Under the pieces are notes generated by a model. The model ran no database searches, had not been told where the DNA came from, and saw only the letters and a list, made by a program, of their open reading frames with translations. Positions 1 to 12,714 of a DNA stretch of 64,000 bases are shown one piece after another. The translations under genes were made by a program, and so were the position numbers. Each line of letters opens with the position of its first letter. The first letter of the stretch is position 1. The DNA comes from a phage, in assembly GCA_021081985.1 (NCBI GenBank), contig GCA_021081985.1_3639.1, one strand, 5' to 3'.

Positions 1-146
1 ATAATCTTGCGAATATTTGGTTTTACCCAATCAATAAAATCATCTAATTTATCCCGTCTGAACCTATATGCCAGATACACACATACAGAGAACAGTACAG
101 TAGTCAGTAGAACGAACACCCAATACCAAATCATAATTATTAACCT

Positions 147-1472
147 TTAATATATAGGATCCCACGTCAAAGAATCTACCTCACGAACACATTTGCCAAC
201 AGGAAATTGCGGAACACCGTCATCGGTCCTTGCTTGGTATGTAAAAGTTATATACTTGCCGATAAGTTTTTTCATATTCTCTTGTGAGCGTTCTTCGTGT
301 GTGCCTCTCATCTTACAGTTAAATTGTGTACCATCCTTCTCAGCACACAACAGGACACCTTCTCCATTCTTATCCTCAAAGGAATCAAGAACTCTGGCCT
401 CACCATCCTGAAACAATTTCCACTTTTGAAGATCAGACGATCTTTGTCCAAACTCATACTTTCCGTGAAAGTTCCTTATTACAACACCCTCATAACCTGC
501 TTCCATAAACTCCTTGATGAGCATTTTAACACGATCCTCATCAGACACTATTGCTCCGTGCACTACTTTAATCAGGTTATAAGGCCATGTATACTCAGAG
601 ACTTTCTGTAAATTATTAAACCTACACTTGTCTGTGTCAGAAGACATCCATGGTGTGTCATCTTCCGAAGGTATATCGAAAATATGATATTCTAAGTCTA
701 AACTTGAATAACCACAATACTTATTAATATTTTTCTCTGGTTTCTTTGTGATAGGATGTTCTAACCCTTCGGAGTCTTTCCAAAACTCATCACCATTGTT
801 AATTGCTTTTTCAAATCGCTTTATGTCTGATTGATAGTCTTTTTCTATCTCACATTCTATCTCTTCTGGTGTTCTCCATTTCTTAGCCAAAGAGACTATT
901 TTCTGGAGACTTAACCCATGAATATACAACTCTCCATCAAACATTTTCAATCCTGTCTTTTTGGCTAGTTTAGACATCTGATCAAGCAATTGGCCTTGTA
1001 CAGGATATGTTTTATTGCCACGACTATTAAACACAGGCACGCCATCATCACCAACCAGAACAAGTGCTCTAACACCATCAAGTTTTGGTTGAACATGCAA
1101 AGGATACACTAAAGAACTTTTCCTTTTGATGGCATCATGTGCCAGCATTGGTGAGAAATCTTGGGTTTTTGTAAGATCATCCTTAGATACGCGATACCCA
1201 AGGCGTACTTGTTTTTCCCACTTAGATTTTGCCTCCAAAACAGCTTGTTCTGTATCAGTTGTCTCATTTTTCTTACCGATGTTTTTGGCAAAGCATTTTG
1301 TGCGTTTATACTGCATTTTACCGTTTTCTTTACCAAACTCAACAACAGTTTCTGATCCATCTGCCCACACATTCCACACTTGATATGTACCATCCCTGTT
1401 TAGGGCGTATAGTGTTGGAAGGTTATTTTCAAGCATTAAATACCTCGCTTGTGACAACAGGTTTTCCTTCAA
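147..1472 (-). CDS. ATP-dependent ligase (nucleotidyltransferase superfamily)
   Basis: 441 aa; motif I KLDGVR (active-site Lys), motif IV EGVVIRN, motif V KWKLF. Confidence 0.75.
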   Translation of the reverse strand: MKENLLSQARYLMLENNLPTLYALNRDGTYQVWNVWADGSETVVEFGKENGKMQYKRTKCFAKNIGKKNETTDTEQAVLEAKSKWEKQVRLGYRVSKDDLTKTQDFSPMLAHDAIKRKSSLVYPLHVQPKLDGVRALVLVGDDGVPVFNSRGNKTYPVQGQLLDQMSKLAKKTGLKMFDGELYIHGLSLQKIVSLAKKWRTPEEIECEIEKDYQSDIKRFEKAINNGDEFWKDSEGLEHPITKKPEKNINKYCGYSSLDLEYHIFDIPSEDDTPWMSSDTDKCRFNNLQKVSEYTWPYNLIKVVHGAIVSDEDRVKMLIKEFMEAGYEGVVIRNFHGKYEFGQRSSDLQKWKLFQDGEARVLDSFEDKNGEGVLLCAEKDGTQFNCKMRGTHEERSQENMKKLIGKYITFTYQARTDDGVPQFPVGKCVREVDSLTWDPIY

Positions 1473-2214
1473 GGTGATTTTCTACCAACTCAATAAGTTT
1501 TTGGTTGCTGAATGCTTCAACTGCTCCACAGCGCATTTGGTACACACCATATTTATCATACTGCTCTTGTTCAAAGTAATTGATCGCTGGGTTTATTACA
1601 ACCAGTTTAATACCTCGTTTTGCGATTGCATGCAGCAATTCCCAGTTAAAGTCGATAACCTGATTAGAGCAGCCAACCAGAAGTACAAGATCTTGAGTAT
1701 TCAAGTCATCAAGCATGGTAAACATGTCCTGATAAAGTGGTGCATTCTCACCGAAAAATACCACATTTGGCTTGCACCACCAGTAATCATCAGGGTCAAC
1801 AACCGCATATCCGACATCAATCACACGTTTAGGAAACTCTTCACCATTCTGTACAACAAGCTCTTTGAGAAAACCATGTACATGGAGAATATCCTTCTTT
1901 TCAATGCCAGCACGTTCAAGCAGATCGTCAACGTTTGTTGTAAGATTACGTACTTGTCCAGGATAACGGTTATACCATTCTGCTACACGAAGATGTGCCA
2001 TGTTGGGGTGCACAGTCTTCAATTCTTCACGGCGTTTGTTATAAAATTCGTGTGTTTTGTGGTAAAAATTACCACGAAATGCATGAATATTACATACTTC
2101 TTCAAGATCATATTCATCCCAAAGAGCTTTACCTGACGAAGTATCTGTACGGAATGTGCGAATACCGCTTTCTGTTGACATACCTGCACCACTAATCACA
2201 AGTAATCGACGCAT
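1429..2214 (-). CDS. Sir2/sirtuin-family NAD-dependent protein
   Basis: 261 aa; N-terminal GAGMSTESGIRTFR matches the sirtuin NAD-binding signature. Confidence 0.75.
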   Translation of the reverse strand: MRRLLVISGAGMSTESGIRTFRTDTSSGKALWDEYDLEEVCNIHAFRGNFYHKTHEFYNKRREELKTVHPNMAHLRVAEWYNRYPGQVRNLTTNVDDLLERAGIEKKDILHVHGFLKELVVQNGEEFPKRVIDVGYAVVDPDDYWWCKPNVVFFGENAPLYQDMFTMLDDLNTQDLVLLVGCSNQVIDFNWELLHAIAKRGIKLVVINPAINYFEQEQYDKYGVYQMRCGAVEAFSNQKLIELVENHLEGKPVVTSEVFNA

Positions 2215-2222
2215 ATAACCAC

Positions 2223-2630
2223 CTATTGTAATTTTAAAGAGTTACGTAAACGTGCTTCTTGACGGTCACGAATAAACTGCGGGACATCATGAATGCTTTC
2301 GTTACCATGATAATTTTCCACAACTACAGATGTTACATCATAGCAGTAGTTTTCTGCTAAGTCAAGATAAGGTTTCAACTCTTTCGCAGAAGTTGTTGTG
2401 TTTGAAACAATAATCTTTTCAACTTCATTCTGCATGTGGAGTTCTACTTTGTCACGACACCATTGATGAGCTTTGTGGATATTTTCTTCTTTCCACTCAT
2501 ACACACCGTCTTCGGTGTAATGAAATTGGTCAGCTTCACACACAGGCCAACGACCATCATCAGACAACTCTTTAGCAAGAGTTGATTTTCCTGACCCAGA
2601 GACACCACGTAAAATAAATAACTTTTTCAT
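2223..2630 (-). CDS. small P-loop kinase, possibly polynucleotide 5'-kinase-like
   Basis: 135 aa; Walker A GVSGSGKST near N-terminus; sits between Sir2 and ligase-like genes. Confidence 0.55.
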   Translation of the reverse strand: MKKLFILRGVSGSGKSTLAKELSDDGRWPVCEADQFHYTEDGVYEWKEENIHKAHQWCRDKVELHMQNEVEKIIVSNTTTSAKELKPYLDLAENYCYDVTSVVVENYHGNESIHDVPQFIRDRQEARLRNSLKLQ

Positions 2631-2640
2631 TAGTTTTCCT

Positions 2641-2973
2641 TTAGTATTGGTGACGATAAAACTTTATACCTAAAGTGTTTTCGAAATATTCTCTCGCCAA
2701 CATAAACTTGTTCACGGCAGATGGGTTAGAGCTATGTACGTGAATCTCTTTAAGATTCGTAAACTTACCATCATGAAGCTCACGTTCAATATAGATGAAA
2801 GCATCGTAACCTTCCTCATCACCACCCAAATCATTATCAAAATGGATGGAATCAATGTCGCTATCACTCATAAATTTTAGTAATGAGTAGAAGCTAGAGA
2901 GATTCTTACACCATAAGGCATTAGGGTATCCATAATCTACTGGATTTCGCAGATCATCCAACCACAGTTTCAA
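2641..2973 (-). CDS. hypothetical protein in repair cluster
   Basis: 110 aa ORF tightly packed between kinase and ligase-like genes; no motif recognised. Confidence 0.45.
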   Translation of the reverse strand: MKLWLDDLRNPVDYGYPNALWCKNLSSFYSLLKFMSDSDIDSIHFDNDLGGDEEGYDAFIYIERELHDGKFTNLKEIHVHSSNPSAVNKFMLAREYFENTLGIKFYRHQY

Positions 2974-3902
2974 ATTGTACCTCCGAAAAAATCCTCAATA
3001 ATTTCACGACGGAATTGTTCATGCAAACATTCCCAATGTTCTTTAGAATAGTTATCACGCAAATAGTTTAAAAGGTTATAATACTCTTCGTCAACTTTCT
3101 TCTTAGCTTCTTCTGGGTTTCCCCAAATCATATCCCACTTGTTCTTACCGCCACGCATCAAAAATTTCTTCGCCAAATAGTGTGGTGATTTTATCTTCAA
3201 GAGAAGATCTTGCTGTCCTGTAGCAGCACGTACAACAAACCCTTCATGTTTGCATTCTTTAGACATTTTCAGGATGTCTGAAAAGTGCATATTTATGTAA
3301 GTCTCTGGTCGTTTAAAACCGAACTCTTTTGCGATAAGATCCAGAGCTTTTTCACTAAGCATAGAAGTTAATTTGTCTTTATGAAATCGAACACCAATCA
3401 AATACACACCTGCCTTTTCTGGTACAATGTGTGGGTCTGAAGGAGCGCAAATCTCAAAGATAAATGTTGTCTTTGGTTCTTCCACACATGATAACAACAT
3501 TGGCAAATTAGTACATTCTTCCATGATCATACCTTTTGCAAGTTTTGCAAAATCGGAATCTAGAGTTCCTGTTGTTGAAACAATTAGCTCACCATTGTAT
3601 GAGCTTACTGCTGCCATGAAGCCATTAACTTTACGTGCTGCATTCACAACCATATCTTTTGGAAGATCAGTACCGTTCTCTAAATGATTGAAAATCTTGG
3701 TAAAAGGCCACACAACGATGTTGTCATCACTGTCCACAACCATACCACGGCAATCAAGTAAGCGACTGTCTTGATCCCACAAGTTTTCCCAAAAAACTTT
3801 GTTACTGTATTTCAAAACAGACAAACCTTTAAACTCACCACTGGTATAAGTCTTCTTTTTGACAAGGCCTTTTGATACTAAATCTTCAACATTGAATTTC
3901 AT
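2970..3902 (-). CDS. ligase-family nucleotidyltransferase, likely RNA ligase
   Basis: 310 aa; motif I RKVNGF (KxNG), motif IV EGFVVR, motif V LLKIKSP. Confidence 0.6.
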   Translation of the reverse strand: MKFNVEDLVSKGLVKKKTYTSGEFKGLSVLKYSNKVFWENLWDQDSRLLDCRGMVVDSDDNIVVWPFTKIFNHLENGTDLPKDMVVNAARKVNGFMAAVSSYNGELIVSTTGTLDSDFAKLAKGMIMEECTNLPMLLSCVEEPKTTFIFEICAPSDPHIVPEKAGVYLIGVRFHKDKLTSMLSEKALDLIAKEFGFKRPETYINMHFSDILKMSKECKHEGFVVRAATGQQDLLLKIKSPHYLAKKFLMRGGKNKWDMIWGNPEEAKKKVDEEYYNLLNYLRDNYSKEHWECLHEQFRREIIEDFFGGTI

Positions 3903-4099
3903 TTGTCTTCACCGTCACTATTGTATGATTGTTTATTAAATGACTCAATTATACATGTTGATCGTCTTGCGTCAACAGATTGGCTTGTTAAATCTTTAGC
4001 AACAACTAGTTTTTCCACATCATCTTTTTTGATGGATCCGTAAGCACCAGAATCCATCATGAAGAATATTTTATCTTCTGTTATCTTGTGTATTTTCAT
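3899..4099 (-). CDS. hypothetical small protein
   Basis: 66 aa ORF, 4-nt overlap with upstream gene. Confidence 0.3.
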   Translation of the reverse strand: MKIHKITEDKIFFMMDSGAYGSIKKDDVEKLVVAKDLTSQSVDARRSTCIIESFNKQSYNSDGEDK

Positions 4100-4120
4100 T
4101 CATAAAATCTCAATAATTAT

Positions 4121-4699
4121 TCAATGGCCATCAGCAGTGAAAACGTCTTTTTCCATACACATTTGGTATGCTTCTGGCAGACCCAAAATTCTCCCATGTA
4201 CATCCCAACCAACATCAAGAATCCGTCCTTTCGCACTGTAAGATCCGTGACTGTGCCCATGCAAGAACACAGACCCATAGTGAGATTTATTCCACGCGGC
4301 AAACGGGTAATGACTCATACAAATTTTTTGTTCATAATCGTTAAATTCGTAATAATCGCACACATCATGACCACGTTTTTTGAATGTTTTAATCGCATCA
4401 AAATTGTCATGATTACCTTTGACAAGGACGATATGCCCAACAAGTTCATCAAGAATTTCTTCAAGTCTTTTAATAACTTGCTTGCCACGACCAAAACAAA
4501 AATCACCAAGCACAAAAGTCACAGTATCGGCATCTGCGCCGTGGTTAAATTTCACTGTGAGGTCTTGGTTCATTTGTTCAACGGTTTTGTACAAATCACC
4601 ACGAAAACGTTTTGAACTCTCAAAGTTCAGGATGTTTTTATGCCAGTAATGTAAATCAGATGTTACACGGTATTTGGTTCCCATTTCTCTCTCCCTCAC
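4121..4699 (-). CDS. calcineurin-like metallophosphoesterase
   Basis: 192 aa; GDxxxGR, GNHD and GHSH metal-binding motifs. Confidence 0.75.
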   Translation of the reverse strand: MREREMGTKYRVTSDLHYWHKNILNFESSKRFRGDLYKTVEQMNQDLTVKFNHGADADTVTFVLGDFCFGRGKQVIKRLEEILDELVGHIVLVKGNHDNFDAIKTFKKRGHDVCDYYEFNDYEQKICMSHYPFAAWNKSHYGSVFLHGHSHGSYSAKGRILDVGWDVHGRILGLPEAYQMCMEKDVFTADGH

Positions 4700-4709
4700 A
4701 CAACAAAAA

Positions 4710-5147
4710 TCACTGTCGCTCTAACAAATCTTCTGCTGGATAAGCATACAGCATGTATTCCCAACCACGATGGTAATGTCTGTGTTGCCAGTTGATTAAT
4801 TTTAGACACACAATGTTCACCACGTTCCTGTCCCCATGGATAAAAACACAAGTCTCAAGGATTGACTTTCCAAACTCAACATGACTGTCAAGATACAGTT
4901 TTGTGTTGTATCTTTTTTCAGCATCCAGCATGATCTGTTTCAAGGCCAGAAATGCCTCGCAACACACAGATTTTTCATCAGAAATCATTTTGATATTCAA
5001 GCATTCACCCCCACACAGGCAACCACGCAAATCGTGTCTGATCACCACAACACAATCGGTTTGAAACAAACCTGTTTGACACACAACAGGCATCGTCGTA
5101 GTGTCATGCCTAAACACAGACAGATATGATACGACGAAGATCCCCAC
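4710..5147 (-). CDS. hypothetical Cys-rich protein
   Basis: 145 aa ORF, several Cys pairs; first gene downstream of the AT-rich control region on the minus strand. Confidence 0.4.
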   Translation of the reverse strand: MGIFVVSYLSVFRHDTTTMPVVCQTGLFQTDCVVVIRHDLRGCLCGGECLNIKMISDEKSVCCEAFLALKQIMLDAEKRYNTKLYLDSHVEFGKSILETCVFIHGDRNVVNIVCLKLINWQHRHYHRGWEYMLYAYPAEDLLERQ

Positions 5148-5362
5148 ACAGAGTCACATAGTGACTTGTGACAACCCGAATCCATGATTGAGATAAACAC
5201 ACAGAGACAAACCTGTAGGGTTTGTTGATGTGGGTTTATCTCAGAATGGCTCATGAGGGTTAGATGATCACAAGCTATCAGCGCAGTGAGCATCTTACAC
5301 ACTCACGTATTGCCTGAAGAGTCTCATCGACTCATGCTTTCAGGCAAAACACTATGAACTCT

Positions 5363-5406
5363 ATGATTCGAAATCATCGAACCATACGATTCGACTCAAT
5401 CGAATC
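5363..5406. repeat. palindromes ATGATTcgaAATCAT and GATTCGA-n5-TCGAATC
   Basis: Perfect inverted repeats read directly in the divergent intergenic region. Confidence 0.6.
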
Positions 5407-5493
5407 ATATCAACAAAAATATTTAAAATCAAGTCTTGACATTCTTCAAGACTTAATGTATTTTAAATAAATTTTATATAATATATTATTATA

Positions 5494-5596
5494 TATAATA
5501 CGTAGTATTATATTATATTAAATTATATTATATAATTTATATTATATTAGATCATATTAAATAGATCATAGTATTATAATACGTAGTATTATATTT
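5494..5596. repeat. AT-rich direct repeats (aatacgtagtattatat x2, tagatcat x2)
   Basis: Two copies of a 17-19 nt unit about 80 bp apart in an almost pure AT stretch. Confidence 0.6.
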
Positions 5597-5644
5597 AATA
5601 GATCTTATAAGTTAGTTTAATTTGATCAGTTAGTATTGTGTCCC

Positions 5645-5689
5645 CAAAACGGGGACATACCCATGTCCCTGAAATGGGGACATATGGGA
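5645..5689. promoter_or_regulatory. paired hairpin/operator-like sites GTCCCC-n-GGGGAC
   Basis: gtccccaaaacggggaca and gtccctgaaatggggaca in tandem just upstream of a TTGACA box. Confidence 0.4.
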
Positions 5690-5693
5690 GGGG

Positions 5694-5722
5694 TTGACAT
5701 TGTGTGGGGTTATGGGTAGCAT
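5694..5722 (+). promoter_or_regulatory. sigma70-like promoter candidate
   Basis: TTGACA, 17-nt spacer, TAGCAT. Confidence 0.35.
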
Positions 5723-6129
5723 TCTCGGTGTTGGATTACACACCGGAGTTTGCCTTGAAATCTAATGTTGGGGGTTTCCATGTAAATCCGAAAGCTGGGT
5801 CATACATCGCTGTCCCGACAGAGTGGGTTTTTGATGAACGGTTATCACCAAGCGATCTGCAAAGATTGATACGCTTGTTGTGGAGATACGAGTATTTCAA
5901 GAATCTGAACCCTCTGGGTGGGGAACTGGTATTCTTTCCGTCACAACAATCCTTGTGTGGCCTGTTGGGGTGGAATGAAAACTCACGAACCAAAGTGTCT
6001 GAATTTCTGTCTCGGATGGAGAGCTTTGGTTATATCAGGCGTGTTAGATCAGGATTTCAGGATTCTGATGGTAACGTGAAACCAAGAAATTATATTATCG
6101 TCAATCGTATCAGAGGGGATAAATCATGA
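5704..6129 (+). CDS. hypothetical protein
   Basis: 141 aa ORF, 4-nt overlap with the downstream Prs-like gene; start uncertain because it overlaps the promoter-like site. Confidence 0.4.
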   Translation: MGLWVAFSVLDYTPEFALKSNVGGFHVNPKAGSYIAVPTEWVFDERLSPSDLQRLIRLLWRYEYFKNLNPLGGELVFFPSQQSLCGLLGWNENSRTKVSEFLSRMESFGYIRRVRSGFQDSDGNVKPRNYIIVNRIRGDKS

Positions 6130-6935
6130 ATATTCGTTTGAGTTTGAACAAGCTACATGTGCCAGTTGACCATTTCACATTTAGTGGTGGTGAGGAGCAG
6201 ATTAAGATCGATATGCGTCATGTTCCGCATGGTTCGATAGGTTTTGTTGATATCTTCGCTAGACTCAAGAACTCACAGGATGTGATGTGTTTGGCACTGC
6301 TTGTTGATGCAGTTAATCGTCTTGGCAATTTGGATGTTGGTGTGGAAAAGGTTTTACACCTGCCGTACATTCCGTATGCTCGACAAGACCGAGTTATGAA
6401 CCCTGGAGAATCTCTGTCGGTGAAAGTCTTTGCCACAATGATTAACTCGCTTGGTTTCCACAAAGTCATCGTCGATGATCCACACAGTGACGTATCCGCA
6501 GCACTGATTGATAACGTGAAAATTCGTTCTCAGACTGATTTGTTCTTGAACATGAATTTTGATTTTGATCTGCTTACGGACGAATCGCTTGTGTTGGTTG
6601 CTCCAGATGCAGGTGCACGCAAGAAGACCCAGAAGGTTGCTGATACCTTGGAACTATCTGTGGTTGAAGCAGGTAAAATCCGTGATGTGGGAACAGGGGC
6701 AATCACAGGCACAACAGTGTTTGGTGATGTTGGTGGGAAGACATGCCTGATTGTCGATGATATCTGCGATGGTGGGTTTACGTTTACAAACTTAGCTCAA
6801 GCCTTGAAAGCTGCTGGTGCAAAACGTGTTATTTTGTATGTTACGCATGGAATTTTCTCTCGTGGGAAAGAATTTATTCTCGACGGTGGTGTTGACGAAA
6901 TTTATGCATACTACGACTGGACAGAAAATTTTTAA
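6126..6935 (+). CDS. PRPP-synthetase-like phosphoribosyl pyrophosphokinase
   Basis: 269 aa; PRPP-binding signature LVAPDAGA and IVDDICDGG. Confidence 0.7.
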   Translation: MNIRLSLNKLHVPVDHFTFSGGEEQIKIDMRHVPHGSIGFVDIFARLKNSQDVMCLALLVDAVNRLGNLDVGVEKVLHLPYIPYARQDRVMNPGESLSVKVFATMINSLGFHKVIVDDPHSDVSAALIDNVKIRSQTDLFLNMNFDFDLLTDESLVLVAPDAGARKKTQKVADTLELSVVEAGKIRDVGTGAITGTTVFGDVGGKTCLIVDDICDGGFTFTNLAQALKAAGAKRVILYVTHGIFSRGKEFILDGGVDEIYAYYDWTENF

Positions 6936-6999
6936 GTTGGTATTGACAAAGATACGTTTTAGTGAAAAAATACGTTTTTAGGATTGGAGGGTTGAGATC

Positions 7000-8715
7000 A
7001 TGCTTCACAAAGAAAGTCCATTGCTGTTTGCAGATTTTTATAAACCAAGTCACATCTCGATGTACGACAAACGTTCACAGTTTGTTCAAGACAACATGAC
7101 ACCACGCAATGCGAAACACTTTGTACACTTTGCAGATGATGACCATCGTGTAATGTTTGCTGGTCTTCAGGGATTTATCAAGTGGTTCCTGATTGACATG
7201 TTTAATAATAATTTCTTTGCTTTACCGAAAGAAAAGGCGATTCAGGATTACAAAGAGATTTGTGATTTGAGCATTGGGAAGGATGCTGTTGAAACTTGGG
7301 GTTTTGAGAGATTGCATGATCTTGGATATCTCCCAATTGAAATTAGAGCTTTGCCTGAAGGAACTCTTGTTCCTGTTCAGGTTCCTATGTTCACGATTCA
7401 GAACACGCACCCTGATTTTTACTGGCTGCCAAACTTCCTTGAGAGCGTGATCTCCTCGGAGACTTGGAAGACAATTACCACGGCAACGACTTTCTGGCAA
7501 TATCGTAAACTATCAGAACTGTGGGCAAAGAAAACATGTGATAACAACGATCACGTTCCTTTCCAGAACCATTGTTTTGCATACCGTGGTGAAGCTGGAA
7601 CACATGACGCAGCACAGAGCGAATTTGGGCAACTGATTAGCTCAATGGGCACAGATACAATTCCAGCGATTGTTTACGCAAATCGCTATTACAACATGAA
7701 AGGTCGCTTTGTTGCTGGGTCTATTCCCGCATCTGAGCATAGCGTAGCGACAACGAACATTGGTTTTATTGTTGAGCGTATCCAGCAGGAAAATCCTGAC
7801 ATGTCGCTTGCTGAAGCACGTTTTCGTGCTGAAGTTGAGTTCTTAAAGCGTTATGCAACAGAGATTTTTCCGTCAGGCTATGCTTCATACGTCGCAGACA
7901 GCTATGATTTTTGGGCAATCATTACACAAGCAGCCAAAATCCTGAAAGATGAGATTATGTCTCGTGATGGCAAGCTGGTCTTCCGACCGGACAGTGGGAT
8001 CCCAGAGCACATCATTGCTGGCTATCGTGTGTGCTCTCAGGAAGAATGGGCAACGGGACAGTGCTGTGATATGGATGCTGTGCTGTTTAAAAATGGCAAA
8101 TATGTCACTCTGTACGAGATGTCCAGAGACACTTCTTGGATGCGAGATTCGGAAGGCAACCTCGTAGATTGGAAATCTTTGACAGGTGATGAATTTACAA
8201 ATTATCTTACCAAAGAGGAGGTTAAGGGTGCTGTACAATGCTTGTGGGAAATCTTTGGTGGTAGTGTAAACTCTTTGGGTTACAAAGTTCTTGATAGCCA
8301 TGTTGGTTTAATCTACGGAGACTCTATCACAATCTCTCGTGCTAAAGAGATCTTTGAGCGCCTTGAAGAACGAGGCTTTGCTTCCAGCAACATTGTGTTT
8401 GGTGTAGGATCTTATACAACGCAATATACAACCCGTGATTCTCTTGGGATGGCTGTAAAAGCTACTGGTGCTGTGATTGATGGCAGACAAGTAATGGTTG
8501 TAAAAGAGCCTAAGACTGATCTTGGGAAGAAATCTGCGAAAGGTTTTGTTAAAGTTATTCGTGGTGATGATGGTGAGTTGAAGCTGGTAGATAATCTTGG
8601 TATTAATCAGGTATCTGACCCTGACAACGAGCTTAGAACAGTTTTTGTTAATGGTAAGCTGCTTGTGGATGAGGATCTTGAAGAAATTCGTCAAAGAGCT
8701 TTGTCACAGCTTTAG
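7000..8715 (+). CDS. nicotinamide phosphoribosyltransferase family protein
   Basis: 571 aa; N-terminus LFADFYKPSH and overall length typical of NAMPT/NadV. Confidence 0.75.
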   Translation: MLHKESPLLFADFYKPSHISMYDKRSQFVQDNMTPRNAKHFVHFADDDHRVMFAGLQGFIKWFLIDMFNNNFFALPKEKAIQDYKEICDLSIGKDAVETWGFERLHDLGYLPIEIRALPEGTLVPVQVPMFTIQNTHPDFYWLPNFLESVISSETWKTITTATTFWQYRKLSELWAKKTCDNNDHVPFQNHCFAYRGEAGTHDAAQSEFGQLISSMGTDTIPAIVYANRYYNMKGRFVAGSIPASEHSVATTNIGFIVERIQQENPDMSLAEARFRAEVEFLKRYATEIFPSGYASYVADSYDFWAIITQAAKILKDEIMSRDGKLVFRPDSGIPEHIIAGYRVCSQEEWATGQCCDMDAVLFKNGKYVTLYEMSRDTSWMRDSEGNLVDWKSLTGDEFTNYLTKEEVKGAVQCLWEIFGGSVNSLGYKVLDSHVGLIYGDSITISRAKEIFERLEERGFASSNIVFGVGSYTTQYTTRDSLGMAVKATGAVIDGRQVMVVKEPKTDLGKKSAKGFVKVIRGDDGELKLVDNLGINQVSDPDNELRTVFVNGKLLVDEDLEEIRQRALSQL

Positions 8716-8728
8716 CAGCATAATCATT

Positions 8729-8751
8729 CCCCTCCGCACGGAGGGGTTTTT
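8729..8751 (+). terminator. rho-independent terminator
   Basis: CCCCTCCG-cac-GGAGGGG followed by TTTTT. Confidence 0.7.
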
Positions 8752-8769
8752 CATTCCTAGGAGAGCGTT

Positions 8770-8976
8770 TTGAGAAATTTCGTAGTCAAGCACGACAGAA
8801 ACCGTGCATCAGTCCACACAGACATGAAAAAAGCGTGGGAGCCAGATATCCTTGACGGACTAGAAGAACATTACATCGAAGTCGGTCTTTGCAAGGATGC
8901 CTCATGTGACCTTTCCCCTCATGAGATTGCAGTAGCAGAATACGAACGTGGTGTCAAGGCTTCTGGAATAGTTTAA
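8770..8976 (+). CDS. hypothetical small protein
   Basis: 68 aa ORF. Confidence 0.3.
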   Translation: MRNFVVKHDRNRASVHTDMKKAWEPDILDGLEEHYIEVGLCKDASCDLSPHEIAVAEYERGVKASGIV

Positions 8977-9044
8977 TTGACAAAAATAAACACCACTGAT
9001 AAGATCTAATAACAAGATAAAAATAAAGTTAGTGGTGATTTGTT

Positions 9045-11509: not shown

Positions 11510-11606
11510 GCTGGGTAAGCCCTTTGGCAAGGGCGAGGATTTATAATCCTGAAAATAGACGGGCTAGCCGTTGAATACATAGGTGGTTCGATTCCATCAC
11601 CCAGCC
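11510..11606 (+). ncRNA. non-canonical tRNA-like RNA
   Basis: tRNA-type acceptor (GCTGGGT/ACCCAGC), D-arm and T-arm (GGTGGTTCGATTCCATC), but the anticodon position is a closed hairpin AGGATT-tat-AATCCT followed by a second tight hairpin; about 97 nt, no CCA. Confidence 0.4.
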
Positions 11607-12638: not shown

Positions 12639-12714
12639 GGGAGTGTAGATCAGTTAGTAGATCGCTCGACCGATAATCGAGAGGACGTAGGGGCAGAGCC
12701 TACCACTCCCACCA
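12639..12714 (+). tRNA. tRNA-Ile (GAU)
   Basis: Acceptor GGGAGTG/CACTCCC, D-arm GATC..GATC, anticodon arm CTCGA-CCGATAA-TCGAG, CCA; position 33 is C and the T-loop is atypical. Confidence 0.6.

What the first reader, a model, noticed from the sequence alone, without database searches (positions are those of the whole stretch)
2223..4699. Split Pnkp-like RNA repair module: kinase, phosphoesterase and ligase as separate genes
A small P-loop kinase (GVSGSGKST), a calcineurin-like metallophosphoesterase (GDxxxGR, GNHD, GHSH) and a ligase-family nucleotidyltransferase (KxNG, EGFVVR, KIKSP) are co-oriented and tightly packed. Together these are the three activities of bacterial Pnkp and of T4 Pnk plus Rnl1 for healing and sealing broken tRNAs. 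In a phage that also carries its own tRNA island, this points to countermeasures against anticodon nucleases. The 110-aa and 66-aa proteins embedded in the module are uncharacterised and could be specificity or regulatory subunits.
Basis: partly seen in the sequence, partly recalled or inferred. Interest (0 to 1): 0.7.

Follow-up and report, generated by a model that had tools for sequence, protein, structure and literature searches.

The report
Phage RNA break-repair gene cassette
This E. coli phage carries a tight cassette of separate genes for an RNA-end kinase, a metal phosphoesterase and a T4-type RNA ligase (plus a cREC protein and a sirtuin) that most likely mends cut tRNAs; the cassette is real and widespread, but its type was already described by comparative genomics and has never been tested in the laboratory.

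Summary
Window 2223-4699 (minus strand) holds five overlapping or nearly abutting genes under purifying selection:
- a Pnk-clade P-loop kinase;
- a 110-aa cREC protein (Pfam PF20274);
- an Rnl1-type RNA ligase;
- a 66-aa protein;
- a binuclear metallophosphoesterase with all metal-binding motifs intact.

The run continues into a sirtuin and an ATP-dependent DNA ligase.

By profile and predicted fold, the ligase is an RNA (tRNA-type) ligase and the kinase is a polynucleotide kinase. In 89 phage loci with a ligase homologue, the kinase occurs in 83 and the phosphoesterase in 72. The kinase is fused to the ligase in 11.

It is not a split Pnkp. The ligase is T4 Rnl1/Trl1-like, and the phosphoesterase is aq_1665-like rather than lambda-phosphatase-like. 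The 110-aa protein is a known predicted enzyme family, not an unknown subunit. The 66-aa protein tracks the sirtuin.

This neighbourhood type (prototype phage rV5) was described in silico by Iyer et al. 2022. I found no experimental test of it.

The kinase lacks the acceptor-binding Arg that is essential in T4 and Clostridium Pnk. The ligase lacks the motif Ia lysine.

Verdict: a new member of a known kind, of moderate interest.

The parts
4121..4684 (-). Stand-alone binuclear metallophosphoesterase (187 aa from the ATG at 4684; the longest ORF starts at GTG 4699). Predicted 3'-end healing enzyme: a 2',3'-cyclic phosphodiesterase and/or 3'-phosphatase.
   Evidence: Pfam Metallophos 6.4e-8 and phrog_547 9e-45. 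These residues are invariant in 26 homologues, numbered on the 192-aa ORF: D15, H17, G65, D66, G95, N96, H97, H130, G148, H149, H151. The closest solved structure is aq_1665 (1xm7), 1.6e-22. Start codon and ribosome-binding site. pN/pS 0.07.
3899..4099 (-). 66-aa protein of unknown function (phrog_20147). It accompanies this sirtuin clade rather than the ligase trio.
   Evidence: phrog_20147 1e-17 and no Pfam match. pN/pS 0.22. Homologues occur in 131 phage records. In T5-like phages it lies 0-400 bp upstream of a sirtuin that is 58% identical to the window's. It is present in only 2 of 89 other ligase loci.
2970..3902 (-). Rnl1-superfamily ATP-dependent RNA ligase (310 aa): a nucleotidyltransferase domain plus a short helical C-terminal module of about 70 aa.
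2641..2973 (-). cREC protein (110 aa): a receiver-like domain predicted in the literature to process cyclic phosphates (RNA 2',3'>p or ADP-ribose 1'',2''>p).
   Evidence: Pfam cREC_REC PF20274 7.6e-16, score 59 against a cut-off of 27. Invariant residues D6, D7, R9, D46, D48, S82, N83, P84. No relative among solved structures. Homologues in 377 phage records. Present in 13 of 89 ligase loci. Prediction: PMC7824862 and PMC9503650.
2223..2630 (-). Minimal P-loop kinase of the polynucleotide 5'-kinase clade (135 aa). Predicted 5'-OH end-healing enzyme.
   Evidence: AAA_33 9.4e-10 and phrog_505 'polynucleotide kinase' 4e-11. Profile against the PDB: CthPnk 8e-12, Pnkp1 6e-10, T4 Pnk 3e-9. AF2 pLDDT 92.4; the top Foldseek matches are CthPnk and T4 Pnk, TM 0.72-0.76. 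K15, D34 and T78 are invariant. It is fused to the ligase in 11 loci.
1429..2214 (-). Sirtuin (261 aa) of a phage-specific clade that lacks the zinc-binding cysteines.
   Evidence: Pfam SIR2 6.4e-26 and phrog_2162 6e-101. The nearest solved structure is E. coli CobB, 3.4e-19; GAGxS, NVDD and HVHG are retained, and only one Cys remains where CobB has its zinc-site cysteines. It is 58% identical to the sirtuin of T5-like phage EC104. It is assigned to RNA repair neighbourhoods in PMC9503650.
147..1472 (-). ATP-dependent DNA ligase, last gene of the run (context; it overlaps the sirtuin gene).
   Evidence: Pfam DNA_ligase_A_M 9e-15 plus OB_2 1.6e-10. It lies within 10 kb of the RNA ligase in 36 of 89 loci and is never adjacent to it.
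6126..8715 (+). Divergently transcribed NAD+ salvage pair (context): ribose-phosphate pyrophosphokinase at 6126-6935 and nicotinamide phosphoribosyltransferase at 7000-8715.
   Evidence: Pfam. NAMPT lies within 10 kb of the ligase in 47 of 89 loci and PRPP synthetase in 37 of 89.

Best explanation
The cassette encodes a multi-protein pathway that heals and seals broken RNA.

**Proposed steps**
1. A host or competitor endoribonuclease cuts an RNA, most plausibly a tRNA anticodon loop. [quoted passage not shown]
2. The metallophosphoesterase (4121-4684) opens and removes the cyclic or 3' phosphate to give a 3'-OH.
3. The Pnk-clade kinase (2223-2630) phosphorylates the 5'-OH.
4. The Rnl1-type ligase (2970-3902) adenylylates itself on K91, transfers AMP to the 5'-phosphate and joins the ends.

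This is the logic of T4 Pnkp plus Rnl1. Here the two healing activities sit on separate proteins, and a binuclear metallophosphoesterase replaces T4's HAD phosphatase.

The cREC protein, the sirtuin and the 66-aa protein form a lineage-specific add-on. They probably process cyclic-phosphate or 2'-phosphate ends or NAD-derived by-products.

The likely benefit to the phage is keeping translation running when host tRNA-cleaving defences fire. This would complement its own tRNA island.

**Shown here:** gene reality, family assignments, intact catalytic motifs, predicted folds, and conserved linkage and fusion.

**Inferred:** every enzymatic activity, the substrate, the order of steps and the anti-defence purpose.
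For: **Family and fold**
- The residues corresponding to T4 R54, K75, K99, G102, E159, E227, G228, K240 and K242 are 100% conserved in 80 homologues. Their roles are described in PMC6379707.
- Kinase: the best profile and fold matches are the CthPnk, Pnkp1 and T4 Pnk kinase domains. The P-loop Lys, the general-base Asp (D34, equivalent to Cth D38) and the acceptor-contact Thr (T78, equivalent to T80) are invariant.
- Phosphoesterase: all metal-binding motifs are invariant. A binuclear metallophosphoesterase is the proven 2',3'-cyclic phosphodiesterase/phosphatase of the bacterial RNA repair enzyme CthPnkp (PMC2190708).

**Genomic linkage (89 loci from GenBank phages and IMG/VR)**
- The kinase is present in 83 loci and is adjacent to the ligase in 55.
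- The phosphoesterase is present in 72 loci and is adjacent in 37.
- All three genes lie within 3 kb in 64 loci.
- All 15 ligase clusters at 50% identity have the kinase, and 13 have the phosphoesterase.
- Gene order varies between lineages.
- Eleven loci encode a kinase-ligase fusion protein.
- The DNA ligase is never adjacent to the RNA ligase.
- tRNA genes lie within 7-10 kb in 29 of 45 loci scanned.

**Other support**
- All genes are under purifying selection.
- The same reading was reached independently for the rV5-type neighbourhood in PMC9503650.
Against: - I found no biochemical or genetic data for any member of these families.
- The kinase family lacks the Arg that is essential in CthPnk (R41) and T4 Pnk (R38) for holding the acceptor strand. 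The window protein has H37, and the family consensus is aromatic.
- The window kinase also has Y107, E111 and H114 where CthPnk has lid residues R116, R120 and R123.
- The ligase lacks the motif Ia lysine (T4 K119, Cth K169), which is thought to bind the RNA 5'-phosphate. It has an invariant S-T-T-G instead.
- Its score against the NCBIfam T4 RnlA equivalog model is far below the cut-off: 25 against 242.
- The phosphoesterase's nearest solved relative is an uncharacterised protein. It shows no detectable sequence affinity to the RNA repair phosphoesterases.
- A close relative, phage Av-05, lacks the entire block. The block is therefore dispensable in at least some hosts.
- Nothing in the sequence identifies the RNA target.
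Confidence: 0.7

Rival explanations
1. NAD-dependent 'fungal-style' route, as proposed by Iyer et al. 2022 for rV5-type phages:
1. cREC (or the phosphoesterase) opens the cyclic phosphate to a 2'-phosphate/3'-OH end.
2. The kinase and ligase seal it.
3. The sirtuin removes the 2'-phosphate by transfer to NAD+, acting as a Tpt1/KptA analogue.
4. NAMPT and PRPP synthetase recycle the released nicotinamide.
For: - cREC and the sirtuin sit in the same overlapping gene run.
- The prediction is published.
- The sirtuin keeps its NAD-binding and catalytic motifs.
- NAD salvage genes are adjacent here and in 47 of 89 loci.
- The ligase's H158 aligns with Trl1 H227, a 2'-phosphate ligand.
- K246 and R250 lie at +8 and +12 from motif V, against +9 and +12 for Trl1 R334 and R337. 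All three residues are 100% conserved.
Against: - cREC and the sirtuin occur in only 2 of 15 ligase clusters, whereas H158, K246 and R250 are universal.
- cREC occurs without the sirtuin (Phapecoctavirus loci), and the sirtuin occurs without detectable cREC (L019-L021).
- The C-terminal module shows no sequence similarity to the Trl1 C-domain and only weak similarity to T4's.
- By sequence the ligase is closer to T4 Rnl1, which needs no 2'-phosphate (E 8e-14 against 3e-7).
- No sirtuin is known to act as a 2'-phosphotransferase.
Confidence: 0.15
2. The enzymes are as described, but the purpose is housekeeping rather than counter-defence. They would mature or maintain the phage's own tRNAs. Alternatively, they would repair collateral RNA damage caused by phage-induced RNA turnover.
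For: - The cassette lies near tRNA islands here and in 29 of 45 loci.
- Odd long tRNA-like genes sit in the island.
- The cassette is very widespread among large virulent phages that encode many tRNAs.
Against: - No tRNA with a protein-spliced intron or a split tRNA was found.
- The close relative Av-05 lacks the cassette altogether. A core processing function would not be dispensable in this way.
- The only experimentally understood phage heal-and-seal system (T4) is a counter-defence; this rests on established knowledge and on text quoted in PMC12445682.
Confidence: 0.2
3. The kinase and phosphoesterase heal DNA ends (3'-phosphate/5'-OH nicks) for the ATP-dependent DNA ligase in the same run. 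The RNA ligase would be a separate function.
For: - A DNA ligase ends the same gene run and lies within 10 kb in 36 of 89 loci.
- The phosphoesterase weakly matches the ligase-associated DNA-damage phosphoesterase PdeM (1.3e-3).
- T4 and Clostridium Pnk also act on DNA (PMC3902929).
Against: - The DNA ligase is never adjacent to the RNA ligase, kinase and phosphoesterase group (0 of 36). The kinase is adjacent to the RNA ligase in 55 loci and fused to it in 11.
- More than half of the loci have no DNA ligase nearby.
Confidence: 0.07
4. The small enzymes belong to nucleotide, NAD or immune-signal metabolism rather than RNA repair. The kinase would be a nucleoside or nicotinamide-riboside kinase. 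The phosphoesterase and cREC would destroy cyclic-nucleotide or cyclic-ADPR defence signals.
For: - The kinase's D-x-aromatic-aromatic/His motif, which lacks the Pnk Arg, resembles the motif I recall in uridine and NR kinases (own knowledge, not tested).
- There are partial P-loop-region hits to NRK1 and uridine kinase.
- The cassette is constantly linked to NAMPT and PRPP synthetase.
- The literature suggests signal-degrading roles for some phage calcineurin-like enzymes.
Against: - Full-length profile and fold matches go to polynucleotide kinases. The nucleoside kinases match only residues 3-49, at an E-value about 1e6-fold weaker.
- Fusion of the kinase to an RNA ligase makes no sense for a nucleoside kinase.
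- No PADLOC or anti-defence family hits were found.
Confidence: 0.07

Closest known systems
Phage T4 Pnkp (PseT) plus RNA ligase 1 (RnlA): tRNA repair that defeats the PrrC anticodon nuclease
   Same: - It uses the same three chemical steps.
- The kinase belongs to the same clade.
- Both are phage-encoded accessory functions.
   Different: - T4 fuses the kinase to a HAD (DxDxT) phosphatase. Here the kinase stands alone and the 3' healing enzyme is a binuclear metallophosphoesterase.
- The ligase has a C-terminal module of about 70 aa instead of T4's 120-aa tRNA-specificity domain. It lacks the motif Ia Lys and has His where T4 has R166.
- The kinase lacks the R38 equivalent.
- The NCBIfam RnlA equivalog cut-off is not met.
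rV5-type sirtuin-centred RNA repair neighbourhood (type 2 of Iyer, Burroughs, Anand, de Souza & Aravind, Viruses 2022, PMC9503650)
   Same: - The gene set matches: sirtuin, T4-like tRNA ligase, cREC, nucleotide kinase and calcineurin-like phosphoesterase.
- It is in the same phage subfamily (Vequintavirinae).
- rV5 itself carries homologues of all five genes.
   Different: - No MazG gene is present in this run.
- The gene order differs. All genes are co-oriented here, whereas in rV5 the kinase and phosphoesterase are divergent from the ligase.
- The paper calls the phosphoesterase 'occasional'. In my sample it accompanies the ligase in 13 of 15 clusters, while the sirtuin and cREC are the rare parts.
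Bacterial Pnkp-Hen1 (Clostridium thermocellum) and Pnkp1-Rnl-Hen1 RNA repair systems
   Same: - They combine kinase, binuclear metallophosphoesterase and ligase activities.
- The kinase domain is the best sequence and fold match.
   Different: - Pnkp is one polypeptide and works with the Hen1 methyltransferase. No Hen1 is present here.
- Its phosphoesterase is lambda-phosphatase-like and is not detected by the family profile.
Fungal/plant tRNA ligase Trl1 (LIG-KIN-CPD) with Tpt1
   Same: - H158 aligns with the 2'-phosphate ligand H227.
- A Pnk-clade kinase is associated, and in some phages fused, with the ligase.
- A candidate cyclic phosphodiesterase (cREC) and an NAD-using enzyme (the sirtuin) stand where CPD and Tpt1 would.
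   Different: - The C-domains show no sequence similarity.
- The domain order of the phage fusions is kinase-ligase, not ligase-kinase.
- cREC is unrelated to the 2H CPD domain, and sirtuins are unrelated to Tpt1.
- Dependence on a 2'-phosphate is untested.
T5-like/SP15-type sirtuin plus 'Swiss-army-knife' HAD neighbourhood (type 3 of PMC9503650)
   Same: - It has the same sirtuin clade (58% identity).
- The same 66-aa protein family lies immediately upstream.
   Different: - It has no RNA ligase, kinase or metallophosphoesterase.
- It carries HAD_SAK_2 and two DUF7415 proteins instead.

Membership tests
Rnl1-type RNA ligase (T4 RnlA; Pfam PF09511) | Motif I KxxG with the adenylylated lysine | tested here: met
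   K91-V-N-G94 aligns with T4 K99-E-D-G102. K91, N93 and G94 are 100% conserved in 80 homologues.
Rnl1-type RNA ligase (T4 RnlA; Pfam PF09511) | Motifs III, IV and V, plus the Rnl1-specific N-terminal sub-domain residues (T4 R54, K75, F76/77) | tested here: met
   E150, E220-G221, K236/K238, R52 and K69 are 100% conserved, and F71 is invariant among the 38 closer homologues. Their roles are described in PMC6379707.
Rnl1-type RNA ligase (T4 RnlA; Pfam PF09511) | Motif Ia basic residue (T4 S118-K119; Trl1 SKHS) | tested here: not met
   The aligned segment is an invariant S109-T110-T111-G112 with no Lys or Arg.
Rnl1-type RNA ligase (T4 RnlA; Pfam PF09511) | Family-defining C-terminal domain (T4: about 120 aa, all-helical, confers tRNA specificity) | tested here: inconclusive
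   [not shown]
Rnl1-type RNA ligase (T4 RnlA; Pfam PF09511) | Curated score thresholds | tested here: inconclusive
   The Pfam gathering score is met (66.5 against 28.3). The NCBIfam TIGR02308 equivalog cut-off is not met (25.2 against 242.25). The protein is a member of the superfamily, not an equivalog of T4 RnlA.
Rnl1-type RNA ligase (T4 RnlA; Pfam PF09511) | ATP-dependent sealing of 3'-OH/5'-phosphate RNA ends | not testable with these tools
   This needs purified protein.
Polynucleotide 5'-kinase (T4 Pnk N-domain / CthPnk clade) | P-loop GxxxxGK[ST] and the general-base Asp (T4 D35, Cth D38) | tested here: met
   G9-V-S-G-S-G-K15-S-T, and D34 aligned to Cth D38. G9, G12, G14, K15 and D34 are invariant in 41 homologues.
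Polynucleotide 5'-kinase (T4 Pnk N-domain / CthPnk clade) | Essential Arg that anchors the first phosphodiester of the acceptor strand (T4 R38, Cth R41), with the partner Thr (T86/T80) | tested here: not met
   The Thr is present (T78, invariant). The Arg position is H37 in the window and aromatic in the family consensus. The requirement is stated in PMC3902929.
Polynucleotide 5'-kinase (T4 Pnk N-domain / CthPnk clade) | Lid arginines contacting the NTP gamma-phosphate (Cth R120/R123; T4 R126) | tested here: inconclusive
   The aligned positions are E111 and H114 (H114 is nearly invariant). The position aligned to Cth R116 is R in the family consensus but Y107 in the window protein. Other conserved basic residues (R8 and the C-terminal helix arginines) could substitute. 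No model coordinates were available to check this.
Polynucleotide 5'-kinase (T4 Pnk N-domain / CthPnk clade) | Fold and closest relatives | tested here: met
   The top 15 Foldseek matches are all CthPnk or T4 Pnk (TM 0.72-0.76). The profile E-values are 8e-12 and 3e-9 over the full length.
Bacterial Pnkp (kinase-phosphoesterase-ligase fusion acting with Hen1) | Single polypeptide with the three domains | tested here: not met
   There are three separate genes with two other genes interleaved. The phosphoesterase homologues found are all stand-alone proteins of 148-227 aa.
Bacterial Pnkp (kinase-phosphoesterase-ligase fusion acting with Hen1) | Lambda-phosphatase-type phosphoesterase domain | tested here: not met
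   The family profile hits aq_1665 (1.6e-22) and then GpdQ-like enzymes (1.7e-3). No CthPnkp or lambda phosphatase chain appears at E up to 0.1.
Bacterial Pnkp (kinase-phosphoesterase-ligase fusion acting with Hen1) | Rnl4-type ligase domain and a Hen1 partner | tested here: not met
   [not shown]
rV5-type sirtuin RNA repair neighbourhood (PMC9503650, type 2) | Sirtuin, T4-like tRNA ligase, cREC and a nucleotide kinase in one neighbourhood | tested here: met
   All four lie in one overlapping minus-strand run, 1429-3902. Homologues of each are present in rV5.
rV5-type sirtuin RNA repair neighbourhood (PMC9503650, type 2) | MazG-superfamily pyrophosphatase | tested here: not met
   No MazG match was found among the ORFs of 147-5147, or in the rV5 and Phapecoctavirus neighbours scanned. 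The rest of the window was not scanned.
rV5-type sirtuin RNA repair neighbourhood (PMC9503650, type 2) | Calcineurin-like phosphoesterase (described as occasional) | tested here: met
   4121-4684.
cREC (Pfam PF20274) | Receiver-like domain with conserved acidic residues, found only in RNA repair or NAD contexts | tested here: met
   The score is 59 against a cut-off of 27. D6, D7, D46 and D48 are invariant, as is the S82-N83-P84 motif. It is flanked by the ligase and the kinase. The predicted enzymatic activity itself is untested anywhere (PMC9503650).

The most novel reading that the evidence does not exclude
This widespread phage ligase family may be a distinct RNA ligase clade rather than a plain T4 Rnl1 copy. 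Its 3'-end recognition site (H158, K246, R250, all 100% conserved) would correspond to the His-Arg-Arg triad that makes fungal tRNA ligase require a 2'-phosphate.

In that case the phage would run a eukaryote-like tRNA ligation pathway:
- The cyclic phosphate is opened to a 2'-phosphate by cREC or the phosphoesterase.
- The ends are sealed, leaving a 2'-phosphate at the junction.
- The 2'-phosphate is removed using NAD+ by the phage sirtuin, helped or regulated by the 66-aa protein, or by host KptA.
- The adjacent NAMPT and PRPP synthetase genes replenish NAD+.

This would give sirtuins a new reaction. It would also point to a viral source, or a viral parallel, for the fungal and plant tRNA ligase system.
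Probability: 0.12. Interest if true: 0.8.

Novelty: new member of a known kind. Interest (0 to 1): 0.35.

Why it matters
tRNA-cleaving defences such as PrrC, RloC, PARIS, retron Eco7 and OLD are an active topic. The only experimentally understood phage repair answer to them is still T4 Pnkp plus Rnl1.

This cassette represents a much more widespread version that nobody has tested. The ligase alone occurs in 737 GenBank phage records, spanning Vequintavirinae, Phapecoctavirus, Pakpunavirus, Otagovirus and T5-relatives of Vibrio and Aeromonas, among others. Several of these groups are used in phage therapy.

If it works as inferred, it would help explain host-range differences on strains that carry tRNA nucleases. 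It would also supply a new set of small RNA end-modifying enzymes.

The departures from the T4 and Clostridium paradigms could reveal different substrate recognition:
- no acceptor Arg in the kinase;
- no motif Ia Lys in the ligase;
- an uncharacterised phosphoesterase subfamily.

As a discovery, however, it is incremental. The neighbourhood is already in the literature as a prediction, and near-identical copies are in GenBank.

Tried and rejected
- **Single-sequence PDB search with the ligase.** It gave only noise; a family profile was needed.
- **Promoter and terminator scan of 1-6200.** It found 21 promoter-like sites against 19.8 expected. That is not informative, so co-transcription rests on gene packing only.
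- **cREC profile against the PDB.** No relatives were found.
- **MazG search.** I looked in the run and in rV5, Phapecoctavirus and Otagovirus neighbours and found none.
- **PADLOC scan.** It gave only weak generic P-loop matches for the kinase.
- **Phosphoesterase fusions to a kinase or ligase.** None were found among 40 homologues.
- **IMG/VR scan with the 66-aa protein.** It returned only 2 loci, so its association with the sirtuin rests on GenBank phages from essentially two lineages.
- **Test of a Trl1-like C-domain by hhalign on the C-terminal module alone.** There was no signal to Trl1 and only a weak one to T4. The Trl1-like reading is therefore kept only as a low-probability lead.
- **'Split Pnkp'.** Rejected on ligase and phosphoesterase ancestry.
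- **dNMP or nucleoside kinase.** Considered and ranked low.
- **Literature searches for experimental work on these families.** Nothing was found. Absence from the searchable library does not prove that no such work exists.
- **Base composition.** It is unremarkable: 37-40% GC in the block against 42-43% next door.

Full report
**1. What is there**

The window comes from a Vequintavirinae-like E. coli phage. Positions 1-5258 are 94% identical to vB_EcoM_TH18 and its sister isolates. Positions 5137-9000 are 95% identical to phage Av-05.

On the minus strand a gene run reads, in transcription order:
- a conserved unknown ORF (about 4707-5147, phrog_7684);
- the metallophosphoesterase (4121-4684);
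- a 66-aa ORF (3899-4099);
- the RNA ligase (2970-3902);
- a 110-aa ORF (2641-2973);
- the kinase (2223-2630);
- a sirtuin (1429-2214);
- an ATP-dependent DNA ligase (147-1472).

Genes overlap by 4 nt or are separated by 8-21 nt. TH18 annotates the same ORFs, five of them as 'hypothetical protein'.

The phosphoesterase most likely starts at the ATG at 4684, behind GAGGGAGAG, rather than at GTG 4699.

Against TH18, every gene has pN/pS of 0.06-0.22. All of them, including the two small ones, are therefore real.

**2. The ligase**

Sequence evidence:
- Pfam RNA_lig_T4_1 (4e-18) and phrog_562 (4e-66).
- A single-sequence PDB search found nothing.
- A 38-member profile hits only T4 Rnl1 (1.4e-10).
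- An 80-member profile aligns to T4 Rnl1 with 98% probability (E 8e-14) and to fungal Trl1-LIG with 93% (E 3e-7).

Conserved residues:
- The residues aligned with T4 R54, K75, K99, G102, E159, E227, G228, K240 and K242 are conserved in all 80 non-identical homologues.
- Their roles are ATP gamma-phosphate contact, the AMP-lysine, and metal and alpha-phosphate contacts (PMC6379707).

Structure:
- The AF2 model has pLDDT 91.9.
- DNA ligases score 11 or less, and the Pnkp and Pnkp1-associated ligases score 7.9 and 7.0.

It is therefore an RNA ligase of the Rnl1/Trl1 lineage, not a DNA ligase and not a Pnkp-type ligase.

Departures from T4 Rnl1:
- The motif Ia lysine is replaced by an invariant S-T-T-G.
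- The C-terminal helical module is only about 70 aa and is not demonstrably homologous to T4's or Trl1's.
- The NCBIfam equivalog threshold for T4 RnlA is missed by a wide margin.

**3. The kinase**

Evidence for the Pnk clade:
- AAA_33 (9.4e-10). The best PHROG is an 'ATPase' family, with 'polynucleotide kinase' second.
- The 41-member profile matches the Clostridium thermocellum Pnk domain (8e-12), Pnkp1 (6e-10), T4 Pnk (3e-9) and phosphoseryl-tRNA kinase over the full length.
- Nicotinamide-riboside, uridine and gluconate kinases match only the P-loop region, at 1e-5 to 1e-3.
- The AF2 model (pLDDT 92.4) has CthPnk and T4 Pnk as its top 15 Foldseek matches.
- K15, D34 (equivalent to Cth D38, the general base) and T78 (equivalent to T80) are invariant.

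A defining feature fails, however:
- The Arg that anchors the acceptor strand is essential in both model enzymes. Here it is H37, and the family consensus is aromatic.
- The window protein also lacks arginines at the three lid positions.

The family may hold RNA differently, or its acceptor may differ. This is the weakest link in the chain.

**4. The phosphoesterase**

- All binuclear-centre motifs are invariant in 26 diverse homologues.
- The family profile matches the uncharacterised Aquifex protein aq_1665 (1.6e-22) and only marginally GpdQ-type diesterases. It matches neither lambda phosphatase nor the CthPnkp phosphatase.
- All relatives are stand-alone proteins of about 150-230 aa.
- CthPnkp and lambda phosphatase show that such an enzyme can heal RNA 3' ends (PMC2190708).
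- The Aravind laboratory has already suggested calcineurin-like enzymes for this step in phages.

**5. Is the trio a unit?**

I collected 9 diverse GenBank loci and 80 IMG/VR loci that encode a ligase homologue. I then searched their six-frame ORFs with the window proteins. Of the 89 loci:
- 83 have the kinase; it is adjacent to the ligase in 55.
- 72 have the phosphoesterase; it is adjacent in 37.
- 64 have all three within 3 kb.
- 36 have the DNA ligase, which is never adjacent to the RNA ligase.

After collapsing to 15 ligase clusters at 50% identity:
- all 15 have the kinase;
- 13 have the phosphoesterase;
- only 2 have cREC, and only 2 have the sirtuin.

Further points:
- Gene order differs between lineages, which argues for selection on linkage rather than inherited synteny.
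- Eleven loci encode a fused kinase-ligase protein of about 431 aa, confirmed by Pfam on one of them.
- tRNA genes lie within 7-10 kb in 29 of 45 loci scanned. That is more than a random placement would give, although the loci are not independent.
- NAMPT is nearby in 47 loci and PRPP synthetase in 37.

**6. The embedded small proteins and the sirtuin**

*The 110-aa protein.* It is a cREC domain (PF20274, 7.6e-16). Its conserved residues are D6, D7, D46, D48 and S-N-P. The family was named and predicted to process cyclic phosphates by Iyer et al. (PMC7824862, PMC9503650). It has no solved relative.

*The 66-aa protein (phrog_20147).* It is not a general partner of the trio, being present in only 2 of 89 loci. 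It does have 131 phage homologues.
- In T5-like phages it lies 0-400 bp upstream of a sirtuin 58% identical to the window's. That sirtuin is followed by a 'Swiss-army-knife' RNA repair HAD phosphatase and two DUF7415 proteins.
- A sirtuin lies within 1.2 kb in 9 of 10 further loci.
- These loci amount to roughly two independent lineages, so the association is suggestive only.

*The sirtuin.* It keeps its NAD-binding and catalytic motifs but lacks the zinc-ribbon cysteines. It matches no defence-system model.

**7. What is already known**

Section 3.7.3 of PMC9503650 describes this very neighbourhood. [quoted passage not shown] Its prototypes are phage V5 and Proteus phage Mydo. It proposes that the sirtuin acts like KptA/Tpt1 on 2'-phosphates.

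My survey refines that picture. The phosphoesterase is a core part, the sirtuin and cREC are the optional parts, and no MazG is present here.

I found no experimental study of any of these proteins.

**8. Accessory nature**

Phage Av-05 is 98% identical from window position 5137 rightwards. Yet it has no homologue of any gene of the block anywhere in its 120.9-kb record. The block is therefore exchangeable and dispensable in some settings. This fits a host-specific counter-defence function better than a core one.

**9. Mechanism and rivals**

The best-supported reading (confidence 0.7) is a multi-protein heal-and-seal RNA repair pathway. It works like T4 Pnkp plus Rnl1 but uses a metallophosphoesterase for the 3' end. 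Its anti-nuclease purpose is plausible but unproven.

The main alternative for the chemistry is the NAD-dependent 2'-phosphate route (0.15).

An intriguing lead supports that route:
- H158 aligns with Trl1 H227.
- K246 and R250 sit at nearly the same spacing from motif V as Trl1 R334 and R337, the triad that enforces the 2'-phosphate requirement (PMC11404444).

Against it:
- The triad is conserved in clades that lack cREC and the sirtuin.
- The C-module shows no sequence similarity to Trl1.

The other rivals rank lower, for the reasons given in their entries: housekeeping tRNA processing, DNA-end healing for the neighbouring DNA ligase, and nucleoside, NAD or signal metabolism.

**10. Verdict**

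- The feature is real and correctly read at the level of activities.
- The label 'split Pnkp' is wrong as ancestry.
- The coordinates miss the sirtuin.
- The two 'uncharacterised' proteins are now placed.

It is a new member of a kind already described in silico, with near-identical copies in GenBank. Interest is moderate (0.35). It lies mainly in the fact that a very common phage RNA repair system with non-canonical active-site features has never been tested.

Noticed in passing
window 3899-4099; L091, L092, L096-L100 around 5001-6400: The 66-aa protein family (phrog_20147) lies directly upstream of the same sirtuin clade (58% identity) in T5-like phages (Tequintavirus, Sugarlandvirus). There the sirtuin is followed by HAD_SAK_2 and two DUF7415 proteins. 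A small-protein/sirtuin pairing shared by two unrelated phage groups may mark a regulator or partner of the sirtuin.
   Followed up: partly
L052, L059, L061-L064, L067, L069, L071-L073 (e.g. L062 9536-10834): IMG/VR phage contigs encode a single protein of about 431 aa with the kinase at the N-terminus and the Rnl1-type ligase at the C-terminus. These loci have no detectable phosphoesterase homologue nearby.
   Followed up: partly
window 1-5137 versus NC_025830 (L102-L105): Phage Av-05 is 98% identical to the right of position 5137. It lacks the whole block (DNA ligase, sirtuin, kinase, cREC, RNA ligase, 66-aa protein, phosphoesterase) and has unrelated small ORFs in its place. Elsewhere Av-05 carries a different 'RNA ligase family protein' next to a methyltransferase and a macro-domain protein, plus a tRNA nucleotidyltransferase. 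None of these is in this window.
   Followed up: partly
window 6126-8715: An NAD+ salvage pair (PRPP synthetase and nicotinamide phosphoribosyltransferase) is transcribed divergently from the cassette. The same pair lies within 10 kb of the ligase in about half of all loci, including lineages without a sirtuin. No NMN adenylyltransferase was seen between or beside them.
   Followed up: partly
window 11510-11606 and 12639-12711: Rfam finds two tRNA-like genes that ARAGORN missed. The first is 97 nt, has a UAU anticodon-like loop and carries a 26-nt insertion in the variable region. rV5 has a similar 99-nt odd tRNA next to its tRNA-Thr (L002 2396-2494).
   Followed up: no
window 1429-2214: The sirtuin retains the GAGxS, NVDD and HVHG motifs but has lost the cysteines of the zinc-binding module seen in CobB. 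It matches no PADLOC defence Sir2 model.
   Followed up: partly
L095 5178-6068 (Escherichia phage vB_EcoM_LNA4, record marked UNVERIFIED): One ORF matches both the ligase and the kinase, with no cREC between them. This may be a deletion that fuses a truncated ligase to the kinase, or an assembly artefact.
   Followed up: no
window 4707-5147 and 5704-6129: Two conserved unknown ORFs flank the divergent intergenic region. The first (phrog_7684) co-occurs with the sirtuin in 11 of 12 sirtuin-bearing loci. The second (phrog_8453) has a weak Crp-type helix-turn-helix match and may be a regulator. rV5 has a 'putative transcriptional regulator' beside its phosphoesterase.
   Followed up: no
L062 16177-16579, L072 15208-15610, L083 18410-18732: ARAGORN calls tmRNA-like genes (permuted type, with tag peptides) on phage contigs, a few kb from the RNA ligase.
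   Followed up: no
L004 6196-6765 (Pseudomonas phage phiPsa381): The gene annotated 'phosphohydrolase (MutT/nudix family)' is a homologue of the window's metallophosphoesterase (5e-29). The GenBank product name appears to be wrong.
   Followed up: no
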